In this document: in pieces, positions 14,369 to 38,780 of the stretch
Numbering within the stretch: position 1 is the stretch's first letter
Layout: every line of letters begins with the position of its first letter
Assembly: GCF_001186125.1 (NCBI RefSeq)
Contig: NW_014040114.1
Span: 20,526 to 72,391, forward strand
DNA length: 51,866 nucleotides
Reading direction: 5' to 3'
Source: Sphaeroforma arctica JP610
Taxonomy: Eukaryota
Notes under the pieces: generated by a model
The model's input: only the letters and a program-made list of their open reading frames with translations
Database searches by the model: none
Told to the model about the DNA's origin: nothing
Position numbers and translations under genes: made by a program

Positions 14369-14693
14369 TGTAGCATTTAGAACCCAGATAATCAAAAAGC
14401 CAATCCAAATCTTAAAATCCAGAATCACCAAATATTGAGTTTTGGAATAAGGATTCAAATATTCTTGATTTTGGAGTCATCCGAAATACTAGCCGTAGAA
14501 CCCGTAAGCTATATCGGGACTCCGTGTGTGAGAGAAAGACTCAAGTAGAACCCTGAGTCTATTAGTAAACACATATAAAGACTCGGTTCGGTTCTCTCAG
14601 ACTAGGGACTTTCCTAGATGAGATAATCACATTTGGGAGGAGTTCTATTGTATCCTTTGGCTCGTACCTTTCAGCTACTCTTCATACTCTTCA
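14369..14693 (+). repeat. 5' LTR of element A (325 bp, TG...CA)
   Basis: TGTAGCAT...ACTCTTCA; homologous to the four other family-1 LTRs. Confidence 0.9.
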
Positions 14694-15660
14694 TTTTTTA
14701 TAATATCCGTATAGATAAGTTAACAGGCTCAGTTACACAACCAGTCATCACAACAGACAACGAGGGTTGAAGATAGAAGCTTAGCGAATAAAATAATTTG
14801 GAAAAGAACTTTATTCGTATATAAGCAATTTTTTAGTAGAAGACTAAGCACGCAGGAAGGACTGAGGCTCAAGAATTAATCACAAGGGTTTCACAAGTGG
14901 ATCAGACAATAACTCCGGGGAATACATTACTCCCGTGCTGGACGTGAAAGAGAACTCCAGTGCAAAAGAGGACGACCTAGAAGGTTAAGAAGAATCCAAG
15001 GAATAACCGAGACGAATTCCTTAAAAGTAATTCTGTGATTCAGTGTGATTTATATCTCAAGCTGTCAAGTTGCGTAATTCATCAATGTTGAGGGGTCAAA
15101 AATTTAGAAAATTGTCAATCAACAGAGGTTGAGGTAGAAAAGGGCACCCAAGTATCCAACAACAATAGACAGCAGATAGCGAGGGCACGAGGTGTGCTAT
15201 CTCGTAGAAGAATCCAAGAACCTAGAACAAACAACAATGTTAGCTTGGTTAATAATTTGTTTAACACAAGACGTGAAGAGCAAAATAGTGGACGAACTTT
15301 AGCCTAGGAATAAGGCTTGGATTCCAAGCATTCAAGAATCTTTAACACATATAGTGCACACAAAAGATATACTTAAGTGAAATATCCACGCAGGACACAC
15401 CAAACATTAGTCTACAAGAACGCGGCAACAAGGTATACAAGAGATGAGAAGTCTAGGGATCCAAATTGCAAGTAGACACGGTCAGACAAGAGAGGTAGCA
15501 ATCAACTACCAGTCAGTGACTACAATAGGTAATCATAGCAGACAAGGAACTAGCAGTAATGCTTTTCATATCACATAAACTTGAGGTAAGGAATATAAGA
15601 CAAACATATTATCACGAAGAGTCCCACAAAGGTGAGCATCTATTGCTGGGTCAAGCAAGA

Positions 15661-16130
15661 GTTCAGCTGAAATCGATTTAACAAACACGAAAGTAATATA
15701 CGAATCATCAAACAAGATCTCGAGAACAATTTAGTTCTCACAAAGCATACCTGAACCTGTAAGAGGGCAATCCCGTACAAGCAGACCAAGTGCGCAAAGG
15801 GCTTAAACCGATCAATGGAAAGGAAGTCAGCCAAATAATAAAAGGTTAGAGATATGTAGTTCGATGCATGCAAGAACATTTGAATTGAGTACATGTAAGT
15901 TCAGCTGAAATCGCTTCAACGAACACAAAAGTACTGCACGAATCATCAAACAAGATCTCGCAATTTAGTTTTCACAAAGAGACACACACCTAAACCTGTA
16001 AGAGGGCAATCCCGTACAAGCAGATCAAGTGCGCAAAGGGCTTTAAACGATCAATGGAAAGAAAGTCAGCCAAATAATAAAGGGTTAGAGATATGTAGTT
16101 CGATGCATGCAAGAACATTTGAATTGAGTA
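15661..16130. repeat. ~238-bp tandem duplication in the leader of element A
   Basis: GTTCAGCTGAAATCG... at 15661 and 15899; both copies end GAATTGAGTA. Confidence 0.92.
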
Positions 16131-16839
16131 TAGGCAGGTAAGACTAAAATGAGTATACACAAGATTCCAAACACAAGTATCATAACATACACCTTAAGAA
16201 CACGTACGATCTATTTGAGTGCATACACTATACAATATATATGCGTATAATAATACATGGGACAGGAATAGAAGCAAGATCTAATTGACTAGCCATATTA
16301 CATAAAAGGGGGTCCATAGCAATTAGCAGTAGCCCACACACATACAAATCACAAGGTAACAAAAGGCAAGGGGTCTTACCAAGAAAACCACATACACATC
16401 TGCTAATCTCAAACGAGAAGTTATAATAATTACACACAACAAGCCCGATCGAATACGCAAAGCACTTAAAATAAGATCAAGAATGGTATATGCAGGGTTT
16501 TCCAACACACATGCGCAAGTAGTCAAATAAGTTAGAAAACTCTAAAGCAGCCAATGAACAATCGTCCACACAAAAAGGTTACATGAGATTAGAAGCAAAG
16601 AATCTACTCAAAGCCAAGAAAGATCACACCATTGAGATTACAGGACACACGTGAACAGCCCTACAGGTAATGAGATCCAAGTGACAAATAAACACTGTGA
16701 ATATATACCCATATGACCAGAAAGCACACGACTAGCATAGTATACAGAGACAGAGTCTGAATAGTGATGGTCACAAGACAAAGACAGAATAAGAATAAAC
16801 ACCTGCAAGTACAACACTCAACTCAATTTAAAAACAGTG

Positions 16840-17045
16840 AAGTTCGGTACAGGACCAAACATCTCAGGTGATATCAACATCAGAGAGAGACGAGATATAA
16901 GACTGAACATCCCAGGTGACATCGCCACCACAGTAGTTCGGTACAGGACCGAACATCACTGGTGACGTCAAGAAACCCGAACTTCCTCGGTGACGTCAAG
17001 AAGACCGAACTTCATAGGTGACGTCACTAGGACCGAACATCTTGC
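16840..17045. repeat. Degenerate short tandem repeats containing TGACGTCA palindromes
   Basis: Repeated GACCGAACATC/GGTGACGTCA units with ~28-bp periodicity. Confidence 0.75.
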
Positions 17046-17364
17046 TAAAACTACACCTGACAAAATAAGCACAAGTAAAGTCACACTTGACGAAATAAGC
17101 TGAACCAAGAAACACCATTCACACCTCCACAATCAAAGGAAGGAGAACAACAAGTTAATGTACAACACAGAACGGTAAACACTTCCCACGGAAGTACAGC
17201 AAAGCGTGACCACAACAAAAGTAAGTGAAATAATTTATTTTTTATTTGTTTTCATACAAGTTAATAGCAAAGACAATGGGGATGAAGCGCCTATTCACAG
17301 TTAATATATCCCGAGTCTTTACTATTAACCTGCAATACTTATACACCCAATCAATCACCTCAAG

Positions 17365-18625
17365 ATGCCAACAGCAACCAGAGCAGGCGTGTATGAAGGT
17401 GAAGGGGGAGGCACTAGCGCAGATGGTGCGGGTGACAGCCCAGTAGGAGGACAAATCCAGGCAGTGGCTCAAGCCAATCAACACCTGCTGGGGTGCCCAT
17501 ACAGTCATCAGCCATGCGTCTATAAATAGGCAAGAGCATTTGTCAAGGCAACTTTGTCCTGGCTAGTAGGTTTGAAAATAAATTAGAACAAACAGTACCA
17601 GTAAACACCGCGAGTCTACACAAGATAGAGTAGGCATTCATGACCAGCAACCAGAACGTCGCATGCCATTGGTAGATGCGGAATTCAGAAAGGGATACGA
17701 TCAAGCTATCAATGACTGCGGTGACGATGAGGAGGATGAAGTAATTGAAATCAATCAGTACATCAGCGAGTTAGAGCTCATGCCTTCACGCTTCGGTGAT
17801 AGGGTTAATGAACCTGCATTATCGAAACTGCTAATGACCTCAAATTTTTTTTTTTGAAGTTACCAAGAGATATTCAGAAACACATATCACAAAGTAATAC
17901 AAGGATCCTGAGCAATTCAAAAAAACTGTTTTTGACAGACTCAGACACCGTCCGGTAGGCTATCTGTTAGATAAATTTCTCAATGACTCGGAGAACAAGG
18001 CACTGTGTAGCGTAGTGGTACGCACAGAGCGATTGCATAGAACGGTGCAAGAGTTAGGGGAGCTTTATCGAAACACGGACAAAGAGCCCATACACACGCA
18101 AATCCCCAAGGTAGTGAAATACCAGGCCCTCATGTAATATGTACACAGCAAGGAAAAGTGGACGCAATCATCAAAGCAGACAAACTGCCTGATGGAAGTG
18201 ACGGGCACTTATCAGATATGAAACATACTGTGTTCCATTCTCTTACTGAAGCAACCATGAGAGCAGCAGCCAAGGTATAGGCAGACCCTATGTACAGAGA
18301 GCGCAAGAGATATAATTCTCACGCGGCCACGCACAGCCAGCCTCAGAATGCCACCACCAATACAATCAGACGTCACAAACCAGACAATGGCGCACCGAAA
18401 CAAACCAAACCAATAAGACAACCCCAAGAGAAGAAAGGGGTGAGAATATGTGCATGTCCTTATTGTAATGTGTCACCAACCCCACATTGTTTTAGTCAAT
18501 GTCCCATGAAGGTATCAAATCAGAACAAGAAGGTGGAGGAGCATGTCCAGAACGATATGCAAGTAGCTAGACTATCCATTACATCCGGGAAGGTGGAAGA
18601 GACAACAGATAGCGATGAGTCCTAA
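17365..18625 (+). pseudogene. gag of element A (frameshifted)
   Basis: Starts MPTATR as in element B, shares MPLVDAE...INDCGDDEED with B, and has a C-terminal CPYCNVSPTPHCFSQC zinc-knuckle variant. Confidence 0.75.
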
Positions 18626-19226
18626 AACAACTGGTGGGCGGAAGCAAACATGATTGACCTGGCTGACAGGCTAAATGTAAATAGAGACGAAGAAACGTTG
18701 TTAATAAATACAAATGATATAAATTAACAACCTTATCCTTACTTCTCGCACCACGAGACCAAAGATTACACATTGACATACAAATCAATGGCAACACATA
18801 CAACGCCCTGGTAGACCCGGAGCACAACGCTCATGTATGGACAAAAGTATAGTAACTGAGAGCTAAATCTATCAGTCAGAGAACAGCCGGGTTACATACA
18901 ACTAGCACAAACAGATGCTAGGATACAAAAAACAGGCCCAACCCAAGTATGTGACATTAGCTATGGAAGCAGAAAAACCTCTCAGTGTTTTGGAGTTTTG
19001 TACCTACCAGACAAGAAGGCACCAATACTTCTAGGTATGGACATACTTCCATACATAGGTATATACATAGCAGGATAAAAACAATTGACCTATTACAACA
19101 GATGCGAAATGGGAATCACTACTTTACTTACTTCCCCAGAGTATGAACAAGAAGGTTTCAGAGAGTCACTTGCAGACCTCTTAGATAACAACGCGAACAC
19201 ACCTCCTGACGTACATTGCAACCTAT

Positions 19227-19918
19227 CAGGCTCTACAGTCACAGTACCTGCAAATAAAATTAATGTCAGTCAAATGAGGCTGCCAAAGTCACTTTGTACC
19301 GCACAAGTATATACCGCAAATAGATGAAAACGTGAAGAGGTGGCTTACAGGTGATCACATATACAAACGAACTACACCAACAACGGTGAACTACCTTTGT
19401 TATTAAAGGGTGCACATGACCAAATAAATGTCTTCAAGAAAGTCAGAACATGTTACCAGGCTCTACAGTCACAGTACCTGCAAACAAAATTAATGTCAGT
19501 CAAATGAGGCTGCCAAAGTCAACTTTGTTCTGCACAAGTATATCCCGCAAATGGATGAAAACGTGAAGAGGTAGCTTACAGGTGGTCACATATACAAACG
19601 AACTACACCAACAATGGTGAACTACCTTTGTTATTAAAGGGTGCACATGACCAAATATATGTCTTCAAGAAAGTCATAATATGTTACCAGGCTCTACAGC
19701 CACAGTACCTGCAAACAAAATTCATGTCAGACAAATGAGGCTGCCAAAGTCAACTTTGTACAGCACAAGTATATCCCGCAAACGGATGAACACATGAAGA
19801 GGTGGCTTACAGGTGGTCACATATACAAACGAACTACACCAACAACGGTGAACTTACCACTGTTATCAAAGAGTGCACATGACCAAATATATGTTCTCAA
19901 GAAAGTAAGAACATGTTT
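19227..19918. repeat. ~230-bp tandem triplication inside pol of element A (PR-RT linker/RT N-terminus)
   Basis: CAGGCTCTACAG(T/C)CACAGTACCTGC at 19227, 19457 and 19688; single copy in element B. Confidence 0.92.
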
Positions 19919-21109
19919 AAACTTATGTGAGATCAAATACCAATATGAACAACATGAATGCGTGCTACCAAAAATAAAGGAAGTACTACACAACCTACAA
20001 GGAACACGATACTTCTCAAAGATAGATCTCACGGGTGGGTTTCACTATTTCTTAGTAGACGAAGCAAGCCAACACCTCTTCACGTTATCTTGGAGAGGAG
20101 CGCAATACTCATTCAAGTCAGCGCCATTTGGCCTACACTCACTCACTGTACAATTTCAGATAGTCATTGCAAACTTGTTCATAGATATCGAATGAGTGCA
20201 AGTGTATGTAGATGACATAGTCATTGCAAGTCTTACAGAAGAAAACACCGCAAGACATTTCGTGGAGTAATCAAACGGTTGAATGGAGCAAATTTCCGAC
20301 TCGATCACAACAAGTGTGTCTTCGAGGTCAAAGTGGTCAACACTCTAGGTGTGAAAGTCACCACACAAGGATTCAAAGCGGATCCTGAAAAAACCACAGA
20401 AAAGAATGATGAACTGGCCACTACCCAGAACGAAACGAGATCTGCACCAAGCGGTGGAACTCGCGAACTATATGCGCGACCATGTCGCCAACTTTGCCCA
20501 CACAAATAAACAATTGCGGAACATAATGAAAGGAAAAATAAACAAGAACATATCCATATTATAGACACCGAAACTCAAAAAGAAATTGGAAGAATTCGAA
20601 GAAGCCATCGCATGTTCAGCGACACTAGCTTACCTTGTTGATAGGGTACCGTTCCAAATTATGAACGATGCTAGTGACTTCGGCATATGAGGATGTTTAT
20701 TTCAAGTCATCGATGGAGTCAGAAGAGCTATTCTCTCCAAAAGCTTGAACCCAGCCCAACAAAGCTATGGCACAAACACGAAAGAGCTACTAGAACTGGT
20801 ATACAACCTGGAACATTTCTCTGAGTACATCAATGGAAAGAACATAACGTTGTGGACAGATCATAAATCGCTCACGCAAATGAACAATCAACAGACGTTA
20901 CACCCAATGCTAGCCAAATGCATTCCCCCACCACTTCTCCATCATACATGTCCCAGGGAAGGACGACCAGATGGCAAATATGTTGTTGCGTCTACGCGAA
21001 GACACATTAATACTAAAAGTCCGAAGCATTACAAGACGCGAACAAAACAACACACAGCAGCCAAAAGTATACCACCTTGGAAAGAAACATGCCCATAACC
21101 ATATCAGCT

Positions 21110-21510
21110 ATAGCCTGGATGGTACACCCCAGATTCTACAAAGAAGCTTAAAGACGGTTTGGGAAATTCACAGTAGATTTGATTGTATCAGCACACAATG
21201 CACACACAGATAAATACTATACCAAAGAACAGAATGTGCCCTACAGAGTGGGCACAGGAAAAGAATGCATGGGCGAACCCACCATGGGAACTCATACCTG
21301 ATGTCCTTGACAAAGTCATTGAAGAGGCAACCAGCATCACGATATTTGTACCATACTACCCCTGATGCAACGTGGTTTCCAAAATTCTTGTCTTTACTAG
21401 TAGAATACCCGATGCTAGTGGGAAACACAAATAATACGTTCCTTAAAGAAGGTACGAAAGCATGTGGCAAGACCCCATGGCGTGTCACATTGGTCGCAAA
21501 GATAGGAGTG
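21110..21510 (+). pseudogene. Dam-like N6-adenine MTase domain in pol of element A
   Basis: WMVHPRFY...GKFTVDL..SAHNAHTDKYY...AWANPPWELIPDVLDKV...TIFVPYYP.ATWFPKF...KTPW; NPPW codons at 21276-21287. Confidence 0.82.
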
Positions 21511-22785
21511 AAACCTCCACACGTTGACTCAACGCAGGAACAACCTGTCATACACATTTCAGCACCACAAACAGTTAACTCTGGAGATGCATCACCTGAA
21601 ACAGAATACGAGACACGTGTCAACATTATCGAACAATACCACAACCTGGGATATTATACCGCTGAGAAAATGGTCAACATGTTGCAAGCTGATACATGGA
21701 CGTGATTGGCCACAAATCCAACAAGAAGAATGCGTACTATGTTTCAAAAATGATACACAAAAAGGAATTCCATCCCTTTCAATCAATCCCAGCCACATTT
21801 CCATGCGACAGAGTCCAAGTGAATACTATTGGGCCACTACTGGACTCAACAGAGGACACACATATGTGTTAGTATGGTTATATGTGCACTCATCATATGT
21901 TATACTCAAACTAATGGTGGACAAATCAGCGACTATTGTAGCACGTACGCTGGCACCAACCATGTGTGAGCATGGGTTCCACTGAATATGCTATTGACAT
22001 ATTTTCAAAAGTCGTTTAACAAGCGCCGACACAACACCTGTTCTCTCGCCCGTACCAACCTAAAGTCTTAGGTGCGAACGAGTGATCACATAGAGACCAC
22101 ATGCCACTGTTACAGAATTTCGTTGAACAAAACCCAGGTAACTGGTGTTTACGACTTCCCTTTGTACATTTGGGCCACAATCTGTGCACCTCAAGAAGAT
22201 ATAAGTCACCGAGATTTAATGTGTACTTCGGTCGCAGACGGAATCAATTCTAGGACTACAACACACCAGTGACCGCACCCAGTATAACAGCATCATGGGA
22301 AGAGTAACTGAAGAGTCTAGAAAAAGGCAATCAGGCCACAACTAGATTCTAATACTGCGCAATATCAAGAGAAGATGCGCGAAGCATATGACCAAAAATA
22401 CCAAAAGAAGTATATACACTTCCAGGAAGGGGACATTGTCATGGTCCGCTATCAAGGTTAAATGAACAAGATGACAGCACTATATGATGTACAATACAAA
22501 ATAGTATGCAGGGAGGACAACAGGTATTTTGTCTGTGACCTTGGTGGGACTGAAGCCACCGAATATCCTAACTCGGTCAGTGATGAGCCGGAAGCATTTA
22601 CTTCCAACAATCACGTACAACCAACCGAGGAGACTCAGTTCTCCTCGATAGATACTATGAGTACCTATTGCATGGGACAGATGGGGAGCGTACCTGGACG
22701 CATGAATCAGACATCGCAGATGCTGATGTTCATACATTATACTGTGAACGCACTCGACGCACACGAAGGCGATCATGGCTTTCAC

Positions 22786-23110
22786 TGTAGAGTATGGAGA
22801 GTAGCTGAAAGGTACGAGACAATTGGATACAATAGACCTCTTCTCAAGTACGGTTATATCAGCTAGGAAAAGTCCCTAGTCTGAGAGAACCGAGCTGAGT
22901 CTTTATTTGTGTTTTCACTAGACTCAGGGGCTACTTGAGTGTTTTCTCACACGCGGGAGTCCCGGTATATCTGACCGGTTCTACCAATAATATTTCTGAT
23001 GACTCTAATATCAGAAATATTCCAATCCTAATTCCAAAACTCAGTATTTGATTATTCTGGGTTTTGGGATTTGGATTGGCTTTTTTATAATCTGGTCCCT
23101 AGATGCTACA
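22786..23110 (-). repeat. 3' LTR of element B
   Basis: Direct repeat of 31100-31424. Confidence 0.95.
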
Positions 23111-23601
23111 GCCCCCAAACCTTGTGCTTCTTAGCCTGCGTAGGAGTAGAAAGTGACATCTTACAGTACTAGATTATCTAGAGGTTGGTGTTTATATACA
23201 GGAAAAAACTTGTCCCTTAGGGGGCATAAGATGAAAAACCTGCCACCATTATCTATTACATATTACCGATTATTTAAATTTATACTATAGCAGGAATCCT
23301 CTACCTCGCTCATCGGAGTCAGTCTTGATCGGTGCTCTCGGTTGATTTCAACTTGGCTTAGGAAAACGTATCTCAATGGTGGCTCTCAGCCGAGTCTCTG
23401 GTCCTAGTCCTTCTGGTGTGTGGGGGGAGCATGCTTCTAGGCGAGAAAAATGGGAGTGTCCTGTGGTATCAGTGACGTGCTTAGGTCCCCCGCCTCGTGC
23501 GTTGTCTGTGCCTCGCTGATCTTTCAGCAGTTCTCGTTGTCGCTGGCTTCTTTGGCCTTGACTGCCTTCTTTTACGTCTTCGACGTTAACGGTTTGTTGT
23601 T

Positions 23602-23727
23602 ATGACATCAGCATCTGCGATGTCTGATTCATGCGTCCAGGTACGCTCATCATCTGTCCATTGCAGTAGTTACTCCAGGGATCCATCACCTCGGATGGAC
23701 GGCCTGTCGTCGACTATCGACAAGAAC
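23602..23727 (-). pseudogene. Chromodomain at the integrase C-terminus of element B
   Basis: FLSIVDDRPSIRGDGSLE*LLQWTDDERTWTHESDIADADVI; the stop replaces the Tyr present in element A (EYLL). Fits I..R..G..EYLVxW...TW. Confidence 0.7.
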
Positions 23728-24919
23728 TGAGTCTCTTCGGTTGGTTGTACGTGATTGTTGGAAGTGAATGCTTCCGGAGCACTGGCCCTTTTTATGAGGC
23801 CAAGTAGCTCATCACTGATCGAGTCAGGATGTTCGGGGACTTTAGTCCTATCAAGGCTACAAACAAAATACCCGTTGCCCTCCTTGCATACTATTTTGTA
23901 GGGTCCGCCATTTGGTGCTGTTAACTTGTTCATTTCACCTTGATAGCGGACCCTGACAAGGTCCCCTTCCTGGAAGTTCACATACATCTGTTGGTATTTT
24001 CGATAGTATGCTGCTCGCATCTTCTCTTGATACTGTGCAACATTGCTCTTTAGTTGTGGCCTAACGGCTGCTTCTGGATTTTGCAGTCGCTCTTCCCAAG
24101 ATACTGTTGTACTGGGTGCGGTCACTGGCTCATTGTAGTCAGTAAGTTGATTTTGTCTGCGACCAAAGTATACATTAAAGCGTGGAGACTTGTGTCTTCT
24201 GGATGTACGCAGATTATGGCCCATCTGTACGAATGGAAGTCGTGAACACCAGTTACCTGGATTCTGTTCAACGAACTTCTGTAACAGTGGCATGAGGTCT
24301 CTATAAGATCGTTCGTTCGCGTCTAAGACTTTAGGTTGATACGGCCGAGAGACTAAGTGTTGCATTGGCGCTTGTTCAACAACTTTCGAGAGTATGCTGA
24401 TAACATATTCCGTGCCTTGATCCGTTTGTATGATTTGTGGGAATCCATGTTCACACATAATTGGTACCAGTGTGCGTGCTATAGTAGCCGCGGATTTGTT
24501 CATCACTGGACGTAAAATGACGTATGATGAGTATACGTCAAGGTATACTATCACGTATGTGTGTCCTCTATTGGAATCCAATAGAGACCCTATGGTGTCC
24601 ACTTGGACTCTGTCGCTTGGATATGCGACTGTAATTGATTGTAAGGGGTGAAATCCCTTCTTGTGTATTTTATTTTTGAGACATGGTATACATCCGTCAA
24701 TGAACTTGTGTACATGGTGTTGGATGTCAGCCCAGTGATGTCCATCTGTTTGCAACTTGTGTACTGTCTCCTCTAATGTCCCAAGTTGTGGTATTGCTCA
24801 ATGATGTTGACATGTGTCTCATATTCTAATGCCTGGGGTGCGTCTCCAGTGTGAACTGGTTCTGACGCTGCAACGTGTATGGCGGGTTGTTCCCGCGTTG
24901 AATCGAAGTATGGAGACTT

Positions 24920-25325
24920 AGCTCATATCTTTGCGACTAATGTGACACCCCATGGGGTCTTGCCGCAAGCTTTCTTGCCCTCTGTGAGGAACGTGTTGTT
25001 AAATTTTTCCACTAGCATCGGGTCTTCTGCTAGTAAAGACAAAAAATTTGGAACCCACGAGGCATTGGGGTAGTATGGTACACATATCGTGATGCTAGTT
25101 GTCACTTCAATGACTTTGTCAAGGACATTAGGTATGAGTCCCCATGATGGATTCGCCCATACATTAACTTCTTGCGACCATTTTTGTTTTAGCGCATTCT
25201 GTTCTTTGGTGTAGTATTTATCTGTGTGCGCATTGTGTGCTGATGCAAACAGATCTACTGTGAACTTCCCAGACCCTCGTTCCGCTTATTGGTAGAATCT
25301 GGGATGTAACATATAGTCTATAGCC
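24920..25325 (-). pseudogene. Dam-like N6-adenine MTase domain in pol of element B
   Basis: DYMLHPRFY...GKFTVDLFASAHNAHTDKYYTKEQNALKQKWSQEVNVWANPSWGLIPNVLDKV...ICVPYYPNASW...KTPWGVTLVAKI. Confidence 0.85.
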
Positions 25326-27369
25326 GAGATGGTTATGGGCATGTTCGTTTCCAAGGTGGTGTACTCTTGGCTATTATGTGTTGCCTCATTCGCATGTTGT
25401 AATACTTTTGACTCTTTGTTACTAAAAGTATCTTCATGTAGACGTGACAACATATCTGCCATCTGGTTGTCCTTGCCTGAGACATGTATGATGGAGAAGT
25501 GGTGGTGGAACGTTTTTGTTATCCACTTGGCTAGCATTGGGTGTAACGTCTGTTGACTGTGCATTTGCGTGAGCGCTTTGTGATCTGTCCACAGTGTTAT
25601 GTCCCCCCCCTTTGATATATTCGGAGAAATGTTCCAGGCTATATACCAGTGCTAGTAGCTCTTTGGTATTTGTGCCATAGCGTTGTTGTGCTGGATTCAA
25701 GCCTTCTGAGAAGTAGAGAATGTCTCTTCTGACTCCATCAATGACTTGGAATAAACGCCCTCCTATGCCATAGTCACTAGCATCGTTCATAATTTTGAAC
25801 GGTACCCCATCAACAGGGTATGCTAGCGTCGCTGAACAAGCAATGGCTTCTTTGAGTTCTTCCCACTTCTTGATTAGTTTCGGTGTCCATAACATGGATG
25901 TGTTCTGGTTCATTTTTTCTTTCATTAGGTTCCGAAAGTGTTTCGTTGTGTGGGCAAAGTTGGGGACATGGTCTCGCATGTAATTTGCTAGTCCCACTGT
26001 TTTGTGCAGATCTCTTTTTGTTCTGGGTAGTGGCCAGTCCATCATTCTTTTCTGTTTCTCAGGGTTTGCTTTGAGGTCCTGTGTGGTGACTTTCACCTCA
26101 AGAATGTTGACCACTTTGACCGCAGAGGCACACTTGTTGTGATTGAGTCGGAAGTTCGTGCTGTTTAGTCGTTTGATTACTTCGCGAACTGTCTTGCGGT
26201 GTTCTTCTTCTGTAAAACTCGCAATGACTATGTCATCTACATACACTTGCACTCCTTTGATATCTATGAGCAGATTTGCCATGACTCTCAGGAATTGTGA
26301 TGTGAGTGAGTGTAGTCCAAACGGCGCCGACTTGAACGAGTATTGCGCTCCTCTCCACGAGAACGTGAAGAAGTGTTGGCTTGCTTCGTCTACTAGGAAG
26401 TGGCGAAACCCGCCTGTGAGATCGAGCTTTGAAAAAAACTGCGCCCCTTGTTGGTTGCGTAACACTTCCTTTATTTTTGGTAGCACAAACGTGTCTTGTT
26501 CATATTGGTAATTGATCTCACGTAAGTCTAGACAGGTCCTGACCTTTTTTGAGTAGACCTGTTTAGTCATGTTCACCTGTTGATAACAACGGTAGGTTCA
26601 CCGTTGTTGGCTTGTCGCGTTTGTATATATGGCCATCGTGAAGCCATCGTTGCACATTCTCATCTGTTTGTGGAATGTATTTGTGCGGAACAAAGTTGAC
26701 TTTAGCGTGCCTCATTTGTCTGAATTTGATTTAATTTGCAGGTACTGTGACTGTAGAGCCTGGTAGGTTGCAGTGAACGTCAGGAGGTGTATTCGCGTTG
26801 GTGTCCAGGAGGTCTGTAAGTGACTCTCTGAAACCTTCTTGTTCATACTCTGGGTCCTCTTCATGTGGTGTGAGGAGCGATTCCCATTTTGCATCTGTTG
26901 GTATTAGTGGATTGATTAAACCCGCTATATACATACCTATGTATGGTAGAATATCCATACCTAGAAGTATTGGTGTTTTCTTTTCAGGCAAGTCCAATAC
27001 TTCAAAACACTGAGAGGTCTTTCTGCCTCCGTAGGTAATGTCGCAAACTTCTGTTGATCCAGTGCGTTGTATTCTTGCATCTGTTGGTGCTAGTTGTATG
27101 TAACCCAGTTGCGCTCTGACAGAAAGATATAGTTCTGATCCTACAGTTTTGTCCATACATGAGCGTTGTGCGCCAGAGTCTACTAGTGCATTGTATGTGT
27201 TACCATTAATTTGTATGTCAATATATAACCGTTGGTCTCGTGGTGCAGGAAGTAACGATAAAGGTTGATAATTTATATCATTTGCATTTATTAACAACGT
27301 TTCTTCATATGTAAATCCATTGAGTCTGTCAGCCAGGTCAATCATGTTTGCTTCCCCCCGCCAGTGATT

Positions 27370-28758
27370 TCAGTGTTCATCACCTTCAGTGATGTCGTCC
27401 ACCTTGCCAGATGTGATAGACAGTCTTGCTATCTGCACATCTTTCTTGGCTTGTTGCGCAGCCTTCTTAGCTTGATTTGCTTTCTTCTCAAGACATTCGC
27501 TGTACCGATGTGGGAATGGCGATTCATGACAGTAGGGGCATGCACGCTCTTCACATGCTCATTTCTTTTTCTGTGTCTGGCCCCCTTGCTTGTGCTGGTT
27601 GTGCGTACCACTGTCTGTCCTGTGACGTTTGTTAGCGTTCATAGAGTTATCCTCCACCTGCGTGTTCGCCTGCGTATTGTTGCGTTTATTTGCATTGTTT
27701 GCAGCTCGCGTCTGATCCCTCAACATACGCTCAGCTTGTGTCACTGACGCTATTCGTATGTGTGTCTTAGTCATATTATGAAGCTTGGCATGTTCGATGT
27801 CAGACAAGTGTCCCTCACTTCCATCAGGTTACTTGTCTCCTTTGATTAGGATGTCCACTACTGATTGTAGTCCATGGTACTTCAGTGCTAAGTATTTTTG
27901 TACTTTGAGGGTTTGGAAGTGTATGGGTTCCTTGTCTGAGTTGCGATAACAAGCTCGGTGCGCACTTCAACATTCATCTTCTTATTCTGTATGTCATTGA
28001 TAAACTTATCCAATAGATAGTCTACTGGGTGCGATCTGAGTCGATCAATAATGATTCTATTGAACTGCTCAGGATCAGTGAAGTGCCTGGTTGTTTGTGT
28101 CTCAGAGTCTCTTATGATATTGAGAACTGCTTTGGTTTCTCCGTTGCGTCAGTGGAGTCTAATAGTCTTCTCACTAGTGCTGGATACTGACACAATGGCA
28201 TTGACGTTGCTAAGAATAGATCACTACATTGTGTAGTGAACTCTATGATATCCTCACAATTCTCTAATCTATAGAAACTTTCCTTCGGCATTTTAGGAAA
28301 CTCTGAAGTTTTGAGTAATTTCTTAAGAGAGGGTTCATTTATCTGGTCGCCTAACCGGGAACGCATGAGCTCTAGCTCACTAATGCACAGACTGATTTGA
28401 ATAAGCTTGTCTTCCTCATCATCACCGCAATCGTTGATCGCTAGATCGTATCGTCGTCTGAGCTCCGCATCCACTAGTGGCATGCGACGCTCTGGCTGTT
28501 GGTCATGTATGCCAACCATTATCTTATGTAGAGTCCGTATGGCCACCGGTGCAGTTTGTTCCAATTTGGATACAAACCGACTCACCAAAACAAAGTAGCC
28601 TTGACAGATGTTCTTGTTGCGATGGGTACCCCCGCTGGTGTGGGCTGGCCCGAGCTACTGCCTGGGCTTGCCTCCCCCATTGGGCTGGCTCCCACGTCAC
28701 CCGTGCCTTCACTACCCTCCCCTCCATCGTATACACTTGTTCTGGTTGCTGTTGGCAT
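27370..28758 (-). pseudogene. gag of element B (frameshifted)
   Basis: MPTATRTSVY start; CPYCHESPFPHRYSEC knuckle; homologous to gag of A and E. Confidence 0.78.
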
Positions 28759-29160
28759 TTTCAGAAGTCTGTGCGTATATGTGGGTGGTCGTGAATTATT
28801 AATGAAGACTAAGGTTACCTTGTGCGAAAGTGCGCGCTTCACCCCCCGTCTTTAGTAATAATACTTATAAAATAAAAAATTGTATTTGTTTTACTTACTG
28901 TTATAGTGTTGTCGATTCGCTGCACTTCCGCTGGAAGTGTTTACCGTGTTGTATGGCCCGGTAGCTTGTTGATTGATTCCCTGTATTTATGAGGGAGAAA
29001 AACTGTGTTTAATAATCAAGCTTATTCCGTCATGTGTGACGTCACTTGTTCTTATTCCGTCACGTGAGATTTATTGTCACTAATTTTATTCCGTCATGTG
29101 AGAATTATTTTCTCATGTGATTTTAATGAGATGTTCGGTCCTAGTGACGTCACTCTGGAA

Positions 29161-29289
29161 GATACCGAACTGTGTGTGTACCGAGCTGTGTCCTGTGCCG
29201 AACTGTGTCCTGTACCGAACTATGTTCTGTACCAAACTATGTTCTGTACCAAACCGTGTCCTGTACCGAACTGTGTTCTGTACCAAACT
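29161..29289. repeat. 17-bp tandem repeat (~7-8 copies, GTACCRAACTGTGTYCT) in the leader of element B
   Basis: Directly visible periodicity. Confidence 0.88.
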
Positions 29290-31099
29290 TATTAAAAAAA
29301 CAGTGATGCAATGTCATACACGGTTTATTTGTCCGAGATAACTGAATCGTTTGAGACTGCTCGTGTTGATCGATTTGTTTTGTGATCTGCTGATTGCAAT
29401 TTGATGGAATGTTCTGAACTTGTCAATACCTTTCTGCTGTTCTTTGTATGTTGTATACTCGGTCAGAATAATGCCCGTTCTTGTAATTGATATTGTGGGT
29501 TGGATTGTTCCTTATAACTCTTTTGTTGTGGGTTGGATTGTCCCCTATTACTTTGTGTGTGTTGGTTGATGACTATGTGTTAGTCCCAATTTGTTAGGTG
29601 ATTTCTTCAATCTGATTTTTCACCTATACTCCAGGATGTTGTGGTTTTGTAGGTTATATTACCGCTAGCCTATATGTGCGTGAGTAATGCTCTGTGTGTC
29701 TTATATCTATTGTTTGGTAATTGATTGATGGAGATGGCTATAGAGATGTGATTTCTCTGAGTGATTTCTTCGGGTGATTTGTCCGAAGAGACCGTGGGAA
29801 ACTGATTCCCGAAGCCTTTGTTTATTGTATGTGGTCTGTGTGTGTAGTGTTACTTCCCTTTCTTATTGCAAGTGTTTCTTGTGTGTGAATCCTATGCGTA
29901 TGTGCACGTGTTTATTGGTGTGATGTCAATGTCACTAGTGATTTGTCTCGATTTGACTGCTCCCTGCCTATTTCAATTGATCTTGGTAGCTGTTTGTACC
30001 CAAGCAGGACTTGGTTGCTGTGTGTATGCCTTGTCTGGTGTGGAGAAGCTCATGTGTTTCTGCGTTCTTGACACTATGTGTGTGTTCGCTTCTGAACAGT
30101 TAATTAAGCTGCGTGCCTTAAGACCTATGAATTGACGCTGTTGTTATTTTGTGATTGCTTTTTCTAGAGTAATATTTGTGAAGTTAATTACACAGCCACT
30201 GTCTTGTGCTTCTTGTGGGTGAATTGCCCAGCACCTTTAAGACTCTTGTGACTTGTCTGTTATCACCTTTGTTAGATCTGATTTGTCTGTCACTCGTGAC
30301 GCTTAACTTGTCTTTAAGTGATTTGTAGTGTCTAATTGCAGAAATGTTTACGCATGTTCCTATTAAGTCTTGCACCGTCCTTGGTTGTTAGCAAGCGTGT
30401 TGAACCGTAATACTTTTTTATTTGGATGAATGTATCCTTCTTAAGCGAATTGACCTAAGTAAATTGAATTTACATTCCCTTGATTGATCTTCTGTGTACT
30501 ATTGCTTATTGTACCGAACAGTCTAAACCTCTTATTGGGTTTATGGGCTTATGCCCTGTACTAGTTATTGTTTCTTATACATGGGTGTGCATTCTTCTAG
30601 CACTAATTCACTGCTTGTTCTGGTTACTATTTAGTATTGCCTGCTGCGTGTGTTATGGTGTGTGTAACGTGTGCGTGTTGTGCAGGGGTCCTTAATCTCC
30701 AAATATTTTCTTGTTCGAAAACTTAGAAAAACCCCAACATTGATGAATTAATGAATGTGACACTTCGTTTGTTTTTCACGCATCTTACGTCACTAAACAG
30801 CCTGTCACACCCTGTAACGTGTTCAGCTTACTTCTGAACACGTTTTCTTTACCTGGGTTGTTGTCCCAAGTCTCTTCTTCATCTTGAAGTCTTCTCTAGT
30901 CTGCCAAGCTGTTCTTTGTCTCCGGCTGTGACCCTTCTTTCTTCTTAGGTCGTTCCTTCTCCGGTTTCTTCTCAATAAAGCTTGTGTTTGGTGTTAGGTT
31001 GTTCTTCGTGACAGAAAATTACTCTATCTATCCTATTACACTTCGTTCAGTGTATGAGGATCCGTGTTGACTTATTGTAAGTAAGGATATTGTAAAAAA

Positions 31100-31424
31100 T
31101 GTAGAGTAGGGAGAGTAGCTGAAAGGTACGAGACAATAGGATACAATAGACCTCTTCTCAAGTACGGTTATCTCAGCTAGGAAAGTCCCCAGTCTGAGAG
31201 AACCGAACTGAGTCTTTATTTGTGTTTTCACTAGACTCAGGGGCTACTTGAGTGTTTCTCTCACACGCAGGAGTCCAGGTATATCTTACCGGTTCTATCA
31301 ATAATATTTCTGATGACTCTAATATCAGAAATATTCCAATACTAATTCCAAAACTCAGTATTTGATTATTCTGGGATTTGGGATTTGTATTGGCTTTTTG
31401 ATAATCTAATCCCCAGATGCGACA
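31100..31424 (-). repeat. 5' LTR of element B
   Basis: Minus strand TGTCGCATC...ACTCTACA, 325 bp. Confidence 0.95.
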
Positions 31425-31858
31425 TCACGAGCAACGAGCACTGATGAATGATCAGCAAGCAACAGAAAGCGCACGAAGCGGGGAACCTAAGCAAGTCTCA
31501 CTGATACCAAGGGATACTCCCACTTTTCTCACCTTGAAGCATGCTCCACCCACACACCAGAGAGATAAGGACCAAAGACTCGGTTGTAGAGCCACCGTTG
31601 GGATGCGTTTTCCTAAGCCAAGTCGAAATCAACCAAGAGCACCGGTCAAGACTGACTCCGATGAGCGTGCTTGTGAACTCCCATCACAGTCCAATTAGTT
31701 AATAGGTAATAGGTAAGAATAGATAATGGTGGCAGGTTTTTCATCTTACGCCCCCTAAGAGATACATTTTTCCCTGTACAAAAACACCAACCTCTAAATA
31801 ATCAGATGTCACTTTCTACTCTTACGCAGACAAAGAAGCATGAAGTTGGAGGGCTGCA

Positions 31859-32189
31859 TGTAGCATCTAGGGACCAGATTACCAAAAAGCCAATTCAAAT
31901 CCCAAAACTCAGAGTCATCAAATATTGAGTTTTGGAATTAAGAATCATATATTTCTGATATTAGAGTCATTAGAAATAATATCGGTAGGACCGGTAAGCT
32001 ATAGCAGGACTCCGCATGTGAGAGAAACACTCGAGTAGAAACCAGAGGATAGTGAATGATAAAACACAAATTAACACTCAGTTCGGTGCTCTCAGACTAT
32101 GGACTTTTCCTAGCTGCGACAACCGTACTTGAGAAGAGGTCTATTGTAACCTTTGGGTCGTACCTTTCAGCTACTCTTCATACTCTGCA
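31859..32189 (+). repeat. 3' LTR of element A
   Basis: TGTAGCATCTAG...ACTCTGCA, preceded by a G-rich tract and a 3' region homologous to B 23111-23560. Confidence 0.9.
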
Positions 32190-35085
32190 TGGCTTCTCTG
32201 AGTTCTTCCTACTTCTTTTTCAGTTCCGGTATCCATAACATAGATATATTTTAGTTTAGTTTGCCGTTCATTAAGTCACAAAAGTGTGTATTGGTGTGGG
32301 AAAGTTGCGGACATGGTCACGCATATAATTTGAACTGATAAACTTTGGTTTATGTCTCGAATTTGTGTATGAACTTGGTTGACTGGTTTAGTCTCCTTGG
32401 TTTATGGTTTTCGTGTTTTTTAAAATTTCATGAGTACGAGGTGCCAAAAACTCCTGGGCTTCTGGTTCTTATTTCGTCCTATAGACTTATATTGTGTGAT
32501 TGTACCGAACTGGTTTTGCATCTATGTTTGTACAGTATACCATGTGTTGCATTTGGTTTGTGTGCTTTCTGTCACTATGTAGTCTGTTATTATTAGCATT
32601 GATGTCTTGTTCAAGACCGCCTGTTGTTCTTGTGTACTGTGACGCTTGTGATTATTGTATTGTTATGCCTGTACTTCTATAGTGATTGGCGTTGTAGTTA
32701 AATTTAGCTCTTGTACTTTGAGTTATGCTGTACGTTATGTGTGTGGCTTCATGCTTCGTATATGTTTCTGATGTCTATGTTCTTGCGATTGTATATCGTC
32801 TTCTTGAACTTGTGTGTCTATGGACTGTTGTGTCTCTGGACTGTGGACTGTGTTCTTGTGATTGTGCTTGTTGATGCCACACTGAGGTGATTACGTACTC
32901 TATTGTGGTACTTTGTTGTCCATGGAGTGTGGATCTTGCCTCTTAACCTTGTGTACTATAATAGAGCTGGTGATTGTGGAGTACAATACAAGTTATTTCG
33001 TGTAGCGCTTGTGATCGTGGACTGCGACCCAAGTTTGTTTCTTGCTCTTCGATATTGACACATACTTTCTTTATAAATCGTTGCGTTTTGCTGGTCTATG
33101 TGATTCTATGTTCTGAATCTAATTTAACCGTTTGAAATCTTGAATGTTTGTGTCCATGAGTTGTGGAGTGTGTTCTCTTAGTCATTACTGTTGTTCACAC
33201 AACGTTTTTATGTGCACTTTATTCTTGTAAGGTGTGACCCTCGAGTGTGTGCTAGTCTTCCTAGATCTTACTGTGGCCAAACTTAAGCGTGAGGTGTACG
33301 CTATTGCTGGATGTCAATGTCCATGGATTGTGGACTGGGTTTTCAATTCTTAGATACGAGTGTATGGCTTGTGGTTGTGAAGTTCAACCCAAGTTACTTG
33401 TTCCCACTTTAACTTGAGGATTGTTACTTTGTGGTTTCCTCGTAGTTAGTGGTGATTTGATGGTGTAGGTGATTTTATAGTGTGAATCTGACGATTTCTT
33501 TGGTGTTTCTAAGCACGTTCGTGTGTGGTTATTTCATTATCTTTGTTAGTTTCTGTGCTTGTTGGACACTGGTCCTCTTTAAGTATCTGTATTCTGCCTT
33601 ATGATATTTCTCTTGGTATGAGATCGCACAATTTCTCCTCTGAGATGTTCAATTAGATGCTCACCATGTATGTGTGTGTCACCTGTTTGCTTGTTTCGTA
33701 CGAGTGGTTCTTTTATTGGCTTGACGCGTTTTGTGTGTTTAATTCGTGTAGTAATTTTAGTTGTATTGTGATTTGGTATATTTCTTCGTTCTACGATAAT
33801 GTATATTCGTTCTGCCCTGATGGGTGTGTACGTGAGAAATGTAGGCTTTTTGTGTCTGATTTGAGGTTAGTCTGTTGGTAAGTTAACTATTGTCTTGTTC
33901 ACGTATTGTGATGTGATATATGCTACGTTATTTTCTTACTTCGCTTCTCTTGTTACTATCCTTTAGTCTGATCACGTGTCTCGTCAGGTTCTATTTTGAT
34001 TCTCCGTGCTCATACTTCAGTTTGTTTTAAATGTAGCTTTGTGTTTCTTTGTTCTCTAGTTCTTCTAACTTAAGTTGATAATTCCTTAGTAGGATCTTTA
34101 TGGTATATTTTGTATTGTCTGCTCTTACTTAGTTGTGGTTCAATATGTACAATCTAAGAGTAGCATGTCCCAAACCCGTATTCGAGTGTTGTTGCAGGCA
34201 CCATGAATTCCTCTTTGCAATTCTACTGTGTTTTTGTCCTCTGTGTTTCTCCCTAGCCTCTCTGTAGTTGAGTGTTAGTTAGTCTGCGTACGTACAGAAC
34301 TTTTCTTGATAGTATTTATCTTATAATAATAAAAATGTATCACTGTGACACTTCCTTGAATTTTCTAGCTTCCCAACTTTGGTATTATCTCTATATTAAG
34401 GAAATTATCACTGTGTCACTTTTGTGTTTTTCTAGTGTCCCAACATAAACAATCAGTTGGGTACGCTGTTTCTAACACTTGTTTTGCTAGGGGTGCTTAC
34501 CTTGGATCACCATAGTCTTACTTACTTATTTTTTTTGCGTCCGCGTGATATCTCTGGACGAGCTTGGCTTCTTGGACACTTGTTTTTTTCGTTGAAGTTT
34601 CCCTTGTTCTTCCCTACTTCCTGTTGTGTTCTCCGTCCCTTACTTTTCTTGTTCCTCGTCTTCGATATCCACTAGTCTTCAAGTTATATCCTTCTAGTTG
34701 TGTGACTATTCTTAACTATACTAAGGAGCTGGTATGACATATTTGTGTATGTGTAAGTCGATTTACCGTGGTAAGGATACTGTTAAAAAAGTAGAGTTTG
34801 AGAGTAGCTCAAGTGCGAATCCTACAGCTCGGTAAAGTCTTAGGCTGAAGGACTCGCATTGAGTCTTTATCTGTGTTTAGTATTTTCTACACTAGACTCA
34901 ATATTTACTTAAGTGTTTCTCTCACACGCGGGAGCCCAGGTATCATCTACCGGTATTCCCGGTTCTATTTCTGATCACTCTATCATCAGAAATATTGGAT
35001 CCTAGATCCAAAACTCAGTATTTGATAATTCTGGGTTTTGGGTTTAGGATTGGCTTTTCTGATAATCTGGCCCCTGGATGCTACA
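32190..35085 (-). mobile_element. Truncated, internally deleted family-1 element 'D' (5' LTR ~34790-35085, long leader, short pol fragment)
   Basis: Diverged LTR ending GATGCTACA at 35085, followed on the minus strand by the family's post-LTR motif. 32190-32331 is homologous to B 25843-25990 (NYMRDHV region). Confidence 0.8.
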
Positions 35086-37251: not shown

Positions 37252-37378
37252 CATTTTAAAGTTAGCAAAGGTATTAATTACTTAGACTACTTAAGCGTCA
37301 AGGTAGATTAACTACCACAAAATTTTTCTTGTCCAAGCTAGTCCTTAAGAGATCAGCTAGCAGTCATAAGTTAATACT

Positions 37379-38330: not shown

Positions 38331-38780
38331 NNNNNNNNNNNNNNNNNNNNNNNNNNNNNNNNNNNNNNNNNNNNNNNNNNNNNNNNNNNNNNNNNNNNNN
38401 NNNNNNNNNNNNNNNNNNNNNNNNNNNNNNNNNNNNNNNNNNNNNNNNNNNNNNNNNNNNNNNNNNNNNNNNNNNNNNNNNNNNNNNNNNNNNNNNNNNN
38501 NNNNNNNNNNNNNNNNNNNNNNNNNNNNNNNNNNNNNNNNNNNNNNNNNNNNNNNNNNNNNNNNNNNNNNNNNNNNNNNNNNNNNNNNNNNNNNNNNNNN
38601 NNNNNNNNNNNNNNNNNNNNNNNNNNNNNNNNNNNNNNNNNNNNNNNNNNNNNNNNNNNNNNNNNNNNNNNNNNNNNNNNNNNNNNNNNNNNNNNNNNNN
38701 NNNNNNNNNNNNNNNNNNNNNNNNNNNNNNNNNNNNNNNNNNNNNNNNNNNNNNNNNNNNNNNNNNNNNNNNNNNNNNNN

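What the first reader, a model, noticed from the sequence alone, without database searches (positions are those of the whole stretch)
24920..25325. Ty3/Gypsy LTR retrotransposons with a Dam-like N6-adenine methyltransferase between RNase H and integrase (family 1)
Seen: after the RNase H end (NQMADMLSR) and before the integrase HHCC, element B encodes ~135 aa with VDLFASAHN (SAM-binding motif I-like), WANPSW (amino-MTase motif IV) and a following VPYYP..W motif. Element A has the same domain at 21110-21510, with NPPW intact. Established: this order (DLFA...N..Y...W...NPP...P.W) is the phage-type Dam domain (Pfam Dam, PF05869) found after RT/RH in DIRS elements, which integrate with a tyrosine recombinase. 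These elements instead have direct TG...CA LTRs, a protease, a DDE integrase and a target-site duplication. Inference: this is a Gypsy lineage that carries its own adenine methylase in the pol polyprotein. It might mark cDNA or new insertions with 6mA, a mark linked to active transcription in early-diverging fungi, green algae and ciliates. I do not know this architecture as a described Gypsy clade, but I cannot check the literature.
Basis: partly seen in the sequence, partly recalled or inferred. Interest (0 to 1): 0.92.

Follow-up and report, generated by a model that had tools for sequence, protein, structure and literature searches.

The report
Gypsy retrotransposon with adenine methyltransferase domain
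Two broken copies of a Gypsy-type jumping gene, likely from the protist Sphaeroforma, carry a phage-like adenine methyltransferase domain between RNase H and integrase that likely marks the element's own new DNA copies; the design is real, but a May 2026 preprint has already described it in this lineage.

Summary
Observation confirmed; novelty refuted. Element B (22786-31424, minus strand; 325-bp TG..CA LTRs, 94.8% identical; TCAC target duplication) encodes protease-RT-RNase H-Dam-integrase. The domain matches Pfam Dam PF05869 (E 1e-12). It folds confidently as an amino-methyltransferase, closest to small phage N6-adenine methylases and, among solved structures, to the RNA methylase PCIF1. 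It was under purifying selection (dN/dS 0.38, A versus B). Both window copies are dead; intact 1288-residue relatives keep NPPW. The nearest named relatives come from Sphaeroforma arctica (79%), so this is very likely the 'Ichthyosporean DAM-LTR lineage' of bioRxiv 10.64898/2026.05.21.726589. That preprint already reports 6mA and expression enrichment on such elements and a negative E. coli assay. Likely role: methylating the element's reverse-transcription intermediate so the host maintains an active mark. This is unproven; RNA methylation or a non-catalytic role remain open. Small additions: a divergent chromodomain ends the integrase, although the preprint says this lineage lacks one; the PCIF1 link is absent from its main text; Copia relatives with Dam exist in databases. 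This scan noted similar elements earlier in other genomes.

The parts
22786..31424 (-). Element B: complete but decayed Ty3/Gypsy DAM-LTR element (8639 bp), nested in element A
   Evidence: many unrelated flanks abut 22786 and 23110 in contigs of public runs (table 7)
31100..31424 (-). B 5' LTR, 325 bp, TG..CA
   Evidence: 307 of 324 ungapped columns (94.8%) identical to the 3' LTR
22786..23110 (-). B 3' LTR, preceded by a short purine-rich tract
22782..22785 (+). 4-bp target-site duplication TCAC (second copy 31425-31428)
28754..31099 (-). B 2.3-kb A-rich leader without long ORF (longest stop-free stretch 95 aa); begins with a T-run, no TGG-type primer-binding site
27371..28753 (-). B gag-like region, broken, with a C-x2-C-x5-H-x4-C knuckle; ends in a stop that lies at the same codon in A
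   Evidence: gag identity inferred from position and knuckle, no convincing Pfam hit
26947..27222 (-). B aspartic protease
   Evidence: PF13975 E 1.6e-10
26112..26549 (-). B reverse transcriptase core
   Evidence: PF00078 E 1.2e-18
25434..25889 (-). B RNase H (one frameshift near 25605)
   Evidence: PF17919 E 1.2e-22, PF17917; frames
24929..25324 (-). B Dam/PF05869 N6-adenine methyltransferase-fold domain (motif I DLFA; motif IV NPSW in this copy, NPPW in intact relatives)
23730..24790 (-). B integrase (HHCC zinc finger, rve core, C-terminal part)
   Evidence: PF00665 E 3.6e-12; PF17921 weak, E 0.042
23580..23726 (-). B divergent chromodomain at the integrase C-terminus (two stops in this copy)
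14369..22785 (+). Element A, 5' part: LTR 14369-14693, leader, gag, pol; heavily decayed, same family
   Evidence: 78% nucleotide identity to B over pol; tblastn
21113..21501 (+). Element A Dam domain, three frame pieces, NPPW present
31425..32189 (+). 3' end and 3' LTR (31859-32189) that continue element A beyond the B insertion
   Evidence: 82% match to the 3' end of B; LTR 82% identical to A's 5' LTR, flanks unmatched

Best explanation
This is a decayed Ty3/Gypsy LTR retrotransposon family, likely of Sphaeroforma, whose pol polyprotein carries a PF05869-type adenine methyltransferase domain between RNase H and integrase, and in intact copies that domain likely puts N6-methyladenine on the element's own reverse-transcription intermediate inside the particle. 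Shown here: the architecture, the fold, conservation of the SAM-binding (DLFA) and catalytic (NPPW) motifs in intact relatives, purifying selection on the domain, and that both window copies are dead. Inferred: pol is packaged with the element's RNA, so the domain sits beside the RNA:DNA hybrid and nascent cDNA. At about 130 residues it has no separate target-recognition domain, so it would act with little sequence specificity on hybrid or single-stranded nucleic acid. After integration the host AMT1 system would keep the ApT-type marks, leaving the new copy in transcription-permissive chromatin. The divergent chromodomain likely helps to choose the insertion site. The model of 6mA seeding followed by AMT1 maintenance is the preprint's, not new here.
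For: Pfam Dam E 1.1e-12. AlphaFold model pLDDT 93.5 from 89 rows; best viral match is a phage DNA N6-adenine methyltransferase (E 1.6e-9, TM 0.78); best solved match is PCIF1/CAPAM (Z 10.2, rmsd 2.9, 133 aligned), with T4 Dam at Z 8.2. Two intact 1288-aa relatives read PR-RT-RH-Dam-H2C2-rve in one frame with NPPW. NPP[FWY] was found in 101 of 151 related domains. A versus B: Dam dN/dS 0.38 (95% CI 0.20-0.71, 123 of 132 codons), dN 0.126 against 0.130 for RT. In one run's contigs, differences private to B are 11 nonsynonymous: 1 synonymous, while those segregating among copies are 9: 15 (p 0.0035). The preprint reports more 6mA-marked and more expressed DAM-LTR insertions than other LTRs in S. 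arctica and A. whisleri. [quoted passage not shown]
Against: No activity has been shown: DIRS, DAM-LTR and adintovirus domains expressed in dam-minus E. coli did not raise 6mA (preprint). The 6mA enrichment is a correlation and could follow transcription. Iyer et al. 2016 judged DIRS-type domains likely inactive. The nearest solved fold is an RNA enzyme. The Dam domain is less constrained than RT (0.22) or protease (0.14), and the estimate rests on one pair of dead copies. ApT is not enriched in the element (observed/expected 0.87-1.05, against 1.02-1.09 in the flanks). The host is inferred from the nearest named proteins, not read from a record.
Confidence: 0.55

Rival explanations
1. The domain works like PCIF1 and methylates the element's own RNA (cap-adjacent or internal adenosine), helping its stability, translation or packaging; 6mA on genomic copies merely follows their transcription.
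For: PCIF1/CAPAM ranks 1-6 in Foldseek against PDB (best E 1.5e-4) and first in the wide structural search (Z 10.2, next 8.8). It is the only PDB sequence hit of the family profile, though weak (E 1.3). 9 of 89 rows touch Pfam PCIF1_WW at E up to 0.05. Iyer et al. place the DIRS domain in the PCIF1 clade. The negative E. coli DNA assay fits.
Against: Small phage proteins annotated as DNA N6-adenine methylases match far better (E 1.6e-9, TM 0.78) than viral PCIF1-like proteins (E 1e-4, TM 0.61), so PCIF1 may lead the PDB list only for want of a solved closer relative. 81 of 89 rows match Pfam Dam. The PCIF1 alignment skips a large insert (133 aligned residues across chain range 232-649) that the retroelement domain lacks. 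The preprint reports DAM-LTRs concentrated in AMT1-positive hosts (9 of 13).
Confidence: 0.2
2. The domain is kept for a non-catalytic job (binding nucleic acid or SAM, or spacing and folding of pol); methyl transfer is weak or irrelevant.
For: Negative heterologous assay. Iyer et al. call DIRS copies likely inactive. 22 of 151 related domains had no recognisable motif IV under my pattern. Earlier unchecked scan notes describe Gypsy families in other genomes that keep the domain with the motif lost.
Against: In this family NPPW is kept in element A, family 2, P0001, P0002 and P0003, and motif I and IV residues are the nearly invariant columns of the alignment.
Confidence: 0.2
3. The domain is a neutral passenger, a nested DIRS fragment or an assembly chimera.
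For: The window is a nested, gapped transposon cluster and both copies are broken.
Against: It stands at the same place in A, B and a second, distant family in the window; it is in frame in intact pols from two sources; RT and Dam trees place the family in matching clades; it shows purifying selection.
Confidence: 0.02

Closest known systems
Ichthyosporean DAM-LTR lineage (Fernandez-Moreno et al., bioRxiv 10.64898/2026.05.21.726589, 22 May 2026; Pirum gemmata, Abeoforma whisleri, Sphaeroforma arctica)
   Same: Ty3/Gypsy organisation with a PF05869 DAM domain in pol and an Asn-Pro-Pro triplet. Nearest named proteins are from S. arctica (79%, 72%). An A. whisleri pol (P0012) falls in the same supported clade in both the RT tree (13 rows, SH-aLRT 96) and the Dam tree (18 rows, 99/98).
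   Different: The preprint says this lineage lacks chromodomains; here a divergent chromodomain ends the integrase, also in the A. whisleri protein. I did not see its supplements, so I cannot say whether this exact family is among those it analysed.
MT (Dam-like) domain of DIRS1-type tyrosine-recombinase retrotransposons
   Same: Same PF05869 domain, placed right after RNase H in pol; integrase-less RT-RH-Dam proteins are among its relatives.
   Different: Here it is followed by a DDE integrase, and the element has direct TG..CA LTRs, a protease and a 4-bp TSD; its RT is separated from the 21 integrase-less RTs with full support.
Small phage DNA N6-adenine methyltransferases (Pfam PF05869, PHROG 111)
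   Same: Best profile and structure matches (PHROG 111 E 8e-14; Foldseek E 1.6e-9, TM 0.78).
   Different: Those are stand-alone phage proteins. T4 and E. coli Dam, on which the preprint bases its motif discussion, match less well (Z 8.2 and 7.7); that they belong to a different Pfam family is recalled, not tested.
PCIF1/CAPAM cap-specific m6Am RNA methyltransferase
   Same: Nearest solved fold (Z 10.2); similar motif I region; same clade as the DIRS domain according to Iyer et al. 2016.
   Different: 15% identity; no WW domain, and the large insert inside the PCIF1 catalytic domain is absent.

Membership tests
Ty3/Gypsy LTR retrotransposon | Direct LTRs with TG..CA ends and a short target-site duplication | tested here: met
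   B: 325-bp LTRs 94.8% identical, TSD TCAC. A has LTRs but no matching TSD.
Ty3/Gypsy LTR retrotransposon | pol order PR-RT-RH-IN with a DDE (rve) integrase | tested here: met
   the Dam domain is inserted between RH and IN.
Ty3/Gypsy LTR retrotransposon | RT groups with Ty3/Gypsy RTs | tested here: inconclusive
   RT groups with integrase-bearing elements, apart from integrase-less ones (100), but no named reference such as Ty3 or gypsy was in the tree. Pfam RVT_1 with RT_RNaseH_2 fits.
Ty3/Gypsy LTR retrotransposon | tRNA primer-binding site just inside the 5' LTR | tested here: inconclusive
   No TGG-starting site in A, B or a third LTR; a T-run follows instead. Self-priming was not supported against shuffles. 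No host tRNA set was available.
DIRS1-type retrotransposon | Tyrosine recombinase instead of a DDE integrase; inverted or split terminal repeats | tested here: not met
   rve integrase present, direct LTRs, TSD; no recombinase family hit in the ORFs scanned.
PF05869 Dam-like N6-adenine methyltransferase | Profile score above the curated cut-off | tested here: met
   48.4 bits against 28.1; 56.2 and 53.8 in intact relatives.
PF05869 Dam-like N6-adenine methyltransferase | Amino-methyltransferase fold with motif I and motif IV NPP(Y/F/W) | tested here: met
   Fold. NPPW in A and in intact relatives; copy B itself has NPSW.
PF05869 Dam-like N6-adenine methyltransferase | Catalyses N6-adenine methylation of DNA | not testable with these tools
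   Needs an assay; the preprint's E. coli test of related domains was negative.
Ichthyosporean DAM-LTR lineage | Occurs in an ichthyosporean genome | tested here: inconclusive
   Likely: nearest named proteins are S. arctica SARC_00333 (79%, sister in the Dam tree, 99/92) and SARC_09892. No genome is held for the window and run organisms are coded.
Ichthyosporean DAM-LTR lineage | DAM domain clusters with S. arctica and A. whisleri DAM-LTR domains | tested here: met
   18-row clade at 99/98 holds B, family 2, both S. arctica proteins and the A. whisleri pol (bootstrap not fully settled).
Ichthyosporean DAM-LTR lineage | Lacks a chromodomain (as worded in the preprint) | tested here: inconclusive
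   By the preprint's threshold (hmmsearch 1e-5) none is detected (Pfam Chromo E 0.015 in P0002, no hit in P0003). More sensitive tests point to a divergent one, also in the A. whisleri member. I read this as a threshold effect in the description, not as exclusion from the lineage.
Ichthyosporean DAM-LTR lineage | Insertions enriched for 6mA and expressed | not testable with these tools
   No modified-base data available; no run on record as RNA was listed.
Chromodomain (chromovirus-type, at the integrase C-terminus) | Chromo fold after the integrase | tested here: met
   20 of 21 PDB sequence hits at E up to 10 are chromodomain proteins (best 0.012); ESM Atlas top clusters are Chromo (0.91); the model (pLDDT 83.6) finds chromodomains in its top ten rows, none below E 0.001. 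Each line is modest on its own.
Chromodomain (chromovirus-type, at the integrase C-terminus) | Methyl-lysine cage Y24, W45, Y48 (group I) | tested here: not met
   Against HP1 only the Trp is kept; the first position is Ser in P0002 and the third falls in a deletion (alignment). This resembles group II retrotransposon chromodomains (PMC3350952 passages).

The most novel reading that the evidence does not exclude
The retroelement 'Dam' is functionally a minimal PCIF1-type enzyme that methylates the element's own RNA or RNA:DNA hybrid rather than double-stranded DNA. The ichthyosporean lineage pairs it with an overlooked cage-less chromodomain, and the same module has also been captured by Ty1/Copia elements. 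That would make it a general retroelement tool across LTR superfamilies and explain the failed bacterial assay.
Probability: 0.25. Interest if true: 0.6.

Novelty: already known. Interest (0 to 1): 0.25.

Why it matters
If the domain is active, a transposon writes an activating epigenetic mark on its own copies, the reverse of the usual silencing story. That idea and its first evidence are already in a 2026 preprint covering what is probably this very genus, so the window adds two dead copies. What remains useful is practical: intact 1288-residue pols with NPPW are candidates for an assay, the PCIF1 likeness says which substrates to try (RNA, hybrid, single-stranded DNA), and the divergent chromodomain amends the published description of the lineage.

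Tried and rejected
No whole genome is held, so copies could not be collected genome-wide. A first dN/dS attempt mapped only 36 of 132 Dam codons and was uninformative (0.68, CI 0.22-2.79); a nucleotide-guided mapping replaced it. In one search the integrase C-terminal part (0.93), the Dam-integrase linker (0.64) and the chromo-like part (0.44, CI 0.19-1.02) were not significantly below 1. A single-sequence search of solved structures found nothing relevant. Tf1-like self-priming was suggested by short LTR-PBS complementarity but rejected: 32, 23 and 190 of 200 shuffled sequences paired as well (B, A, family 2). No tRNA genes in the window. No RNA holder was listed among runs, so expression was not assessed. 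Summed contig depth was not used as a copy number. ApT composition gave no signal. The wide structural search of the chromo model was not run. Look-ups of earlier findings by place and by sequence returned nothing. Pfam scans of 19 further window ORFs besides two element-A pieces found only the RT and RNase H of family 2 and no host gene that could name the organism; ORFs beyond 44700 were not scanned. Literature: five searches; none listed a paper on Copia elements with a Dam domain, and 'copia', 'PCIF1' and 'CAPAM' do not occur in the preprint's main text. Its supplements, Repbase and GyDB were not seen and may bear on all three additions.

Full report
Observation. Six-frame translation of 23300-28900 on the minus strand shows the RNase H end (NQMADMLSR), a spacer, then VDLFASAHN, WANPSW and VPYYPNASW, and then the integrase zinc finger. 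The stop-free part 24926-25285 matches Pfam Dam PF05869 at E 1.1e-12, well above the curated cut-off, and PHROG 111, DNA methyltransferase, at 8e-14. A profile built from relatives finds the domain three times in the window: in element B (25324-24929), in three frame pieces in element A (21113-21501), and in a second, distant family at 39823-40209.

Anatomy. Element B runs from 31424 to 22786 on the minus strand. Its 325-bp LTRs begin TG, end CA, are 94.8% identical and are flanked by TCAC on both sides. Contigs of public runs show many unrelated flanks at exactly these LTR ends (12-13 loose ends at 22786 and 16-20 at 23110 in three of four runs, agreement about 0.4), so the family has many insertions. 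Inside lie a 2.3-kb A-rich leader without a long ORF, a broken gag-like region, and pol: protease, RT, RNase H, Dam, HHCC-rve integrase. B's pol has three frameshifts and six stops. B sits in the 3' end of element A (14369-22785 plus 31425-32189), a more decayed plus-strand copy, 78% identical over pol. A's LTRs are only 82% identical and lack a matching TSD, so A is old or a recombinant.

Relatives. A search for longer proteins gave three hits: SARC_00333 of Sphaeroforma arctica JP610 (79%) and two intact 1288-residue pols (74%, 73%). Both pols read PR-RT-RH-Dam-H2C2-rve in one frame with DLFA and NPPW. A full HMMER scan found 470 relatives at E up to 0.001 and listed 150. I scanned 47 long ones with Pfam: 11 have an integrase domain after Dam; two place Dam after an AP endonuclease and before RT; one is Copia-type; 21 with RT and no integrase were treated as DIRS-like. 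Of ten looked up, one is a second S. arctica protein and one is an Abeoforma whisleri pol. NPP[FWY] occurs in 101 of 151 domains and 22 had no motif under my pattern. B's Ser replaces a Pro that is nearly invariant, and contigs of other copies carry the Pro codon and lack B's stop near the start of the domain, so these lesions are private decay.

Trees. The RT tree (41 rows, quick method, no named references) separates 20 rows labelled LTR-type from 21 integrase-less rows at full support. B falls in a 13-row clade (SH-aLRT 96) with family 2 and the A. whisleri pol. Some rows were labelled LTR by length and RNase H type without a Pfam integrase hit. The Dam tree (49 rows, bootstrap not fully settled) puts B beside SARC_00333 (99/92), in an 18-row clade (99/98) with the same members; other Gypsy-type Dams sit among DIRS-like ones. 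This agrees with repeated capture, as published; I did not test monophyly formally. The host is therefore likely Sphaeroforma, by inference.

Fold. B's domain, read through its stop with X and folded with 89 rows, gave pLDDT 93.5. Among predicted viral structures the best matches are small phage DNA N6-adenine methyltransferases (E 1.6e-9, TM 0.78), followed by PCIF1-like proteins of giant viruses. Among solved structures PCIF1/CAPAM leads (Foldseek E 1.5e-4; Z 10.2, rmsd 2.9, 133 aligned), ahead of rRNA adenine methylases (8.8) and T4 Dam (8.2). Iyer et al. 2016 (PMC4738411; passages and section 9 read) put the DIRS domain in the PCIF1 clade and thought it likely inactive. Yu et al. 2022 (PMC9178792; abstract only) report PCIF1 activity in the order ssRNA > hybrid > ssDNA > dsDNA.

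Selection. Comparing A with B codon by codon, the Dam domain has dN/dS 0.38 (CI 0.20-0.71; 123 of 132 codons, three stop pairs dropped; Fisher p 0.001). RT gives 0.22, protease 0.14 and integrase core 0.23; dN is alike in Dam and RT (0.126, 0.130). The integrase C-terminal part and the Dam-integrase linker are not below 1. Both copies decayed after insertion, which inflates these values. As a second check I classed 36 of the 39 variant rows (three second alleles or rows rare in run X1 were left out). Changes private to B are 11 nonsynonymous to 1 synonymous, and those segregating among copies are 9 to 15 (p 0.0035). The domain is maintained in the active lineage and decays in B.

What is known. 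bioRxiv 10.64898/2026.05.21.726589 (whole main text read; supplements not seen) reports DAM domains in Ty3/Gypsy-like elements from at least four captures out of DIRS, one being an ichthyosporean lineage in Pirum, Abeoforma and S. arctica. It finds more 6mA-marked and more expressed DAM-LTR insertions in S. arctica and A. whisleri, no activity in E. coli, and proposes 6mA deposition on reverse-transcription intermediates followed by AMT1 maintenance. De Mendoza et al. 2018 (PMC5890265; passages) give the DIRS background. Earlier notes of this scan describe similar elements in other genomes and point to the same preprint; I had found the preprint and the PCIF1 match before reading them.

Mechanism. 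I commit to methylation of the element's own hybrid or cDNA intermediate (0.55). Shown: architecture, fold, motif conservation, selection. Inferred: activity, substrate and benefit. A small domain without a target-recognition part, fused beside RT and RNase H, fits a low-specificity enzyme acting in the particle; PCIF1's substrate order would explain the negative double-stranded assay. Rivals are RNA methylation (0.2) and a non-catalytic role (0.2); a passenger or artefact is excluded.

Additions beyond the preprint's main text. First, the integrase ends in a divergent chromodomain. Pfam misses it (E 0.015 in P0002), but 20 of 21 weak PDB sequence hits are chromodomain proteins, the Atlas's top clusters are Chromo, and the model of B's copy retrieves chromodomains first, though none below E 0.001. 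A five-sequence chromo profile scores the A. whisleri pol at 23.4 bits and P0002/P0003 at 8.2/5.6, against a best of 5.0 in 200 shuffles; B and A themselves score within the shuffle range. Two of three cage residues are lost, as in group II retrotransposon chromodomains (PMC3350952; abstract and passages). Second, the PCIF1 link is not mentioned there. Third, two Copia-type pols 59% alike in this region carry a Dam domain, and 'copia' does not occur in the preprint's main text; one targeted search listed no such paper.

Verdict. Real and well supported as a structure, but already described for what is very likely this lineage, and represented here by dead copies. Interest 0.25.

Noticed in passing
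window 36484-43486 (+), Dam-like domain 39823-40209: A second, distant DAM-LTR family (768-bp LTRs about 94% identical, RT-RH-Dam with NPPW-IN, two N gaps) is inserted in an RT fragment of family 1; it falls in the same RT and Dam clades.
   Followed up: partly
database proteins P0061 (twin P0173) and P0178; not in the window: Ty1/Copia pols (Pol_BBD protease, SH3, RVT_2) with a Dam domain; in P0061 it reads NPPW and lies between protease and integrase. Copia is not mentioned in the preprint's main text; hosts and LTRs unknown.
   Followed up: partly
database proteins P0022, P0029; not in the window: Polyproteins with AP endonuclease-like domain, Dam, then a long-branch RT, RNase H and integrase zinc finger: an unusual LTR-type architecture with Dam upstream of RT.
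   Followed up: no
window 31099-31080 (-), 14694-14712 (+), about 34790-34770 (-): No TGG-type primer-binding site: the 5' LTR is followed by a run of six T and a short shared motif in three copies; the primer is unknown and self-priming was not supported.
   Followed up: partly
window 28754-31099 (-) and 14694-17366 (+): Long A-rich leaders (2.3 and 2.7 kb) that do not align between A and B over most of their length; contigs like B's 29222-31027 are far sparser than those like pol, suggesting subfamily-specific leaders.
   Followed up: no
window about 27371 (-) and 18623-18625 (+): gag and pol are in the same frame, separated by a stop at the same codon in A (TAA) and B (TGA); a third fragment has CGA there. 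Read-through or separate initiation is untested.
   Followed up: no
window 19224-19917 (+): Element A holds a threefold tandem duplication of about 231 bp at the start of RT.
   Followed up: no
window 32190-36483: Further family-1 debris: a minus-strand LTR ending at 35085 with a long T-rich leader and a short RT/RNase H-connection fragment at 32190-32333, and a plus-strand gag-end/PR/RT fragment at 35106-36483.
   Followed up: partly
window 43978-45592 (-) and 45662-49263 (+): Broken ORFs of unknown kind (no Pfam hit for two scanned), and a 1-kb direct repeat (88%) around a fragment with RT-like motifs at 47365-47958 seen by eye.
   Followed up: no
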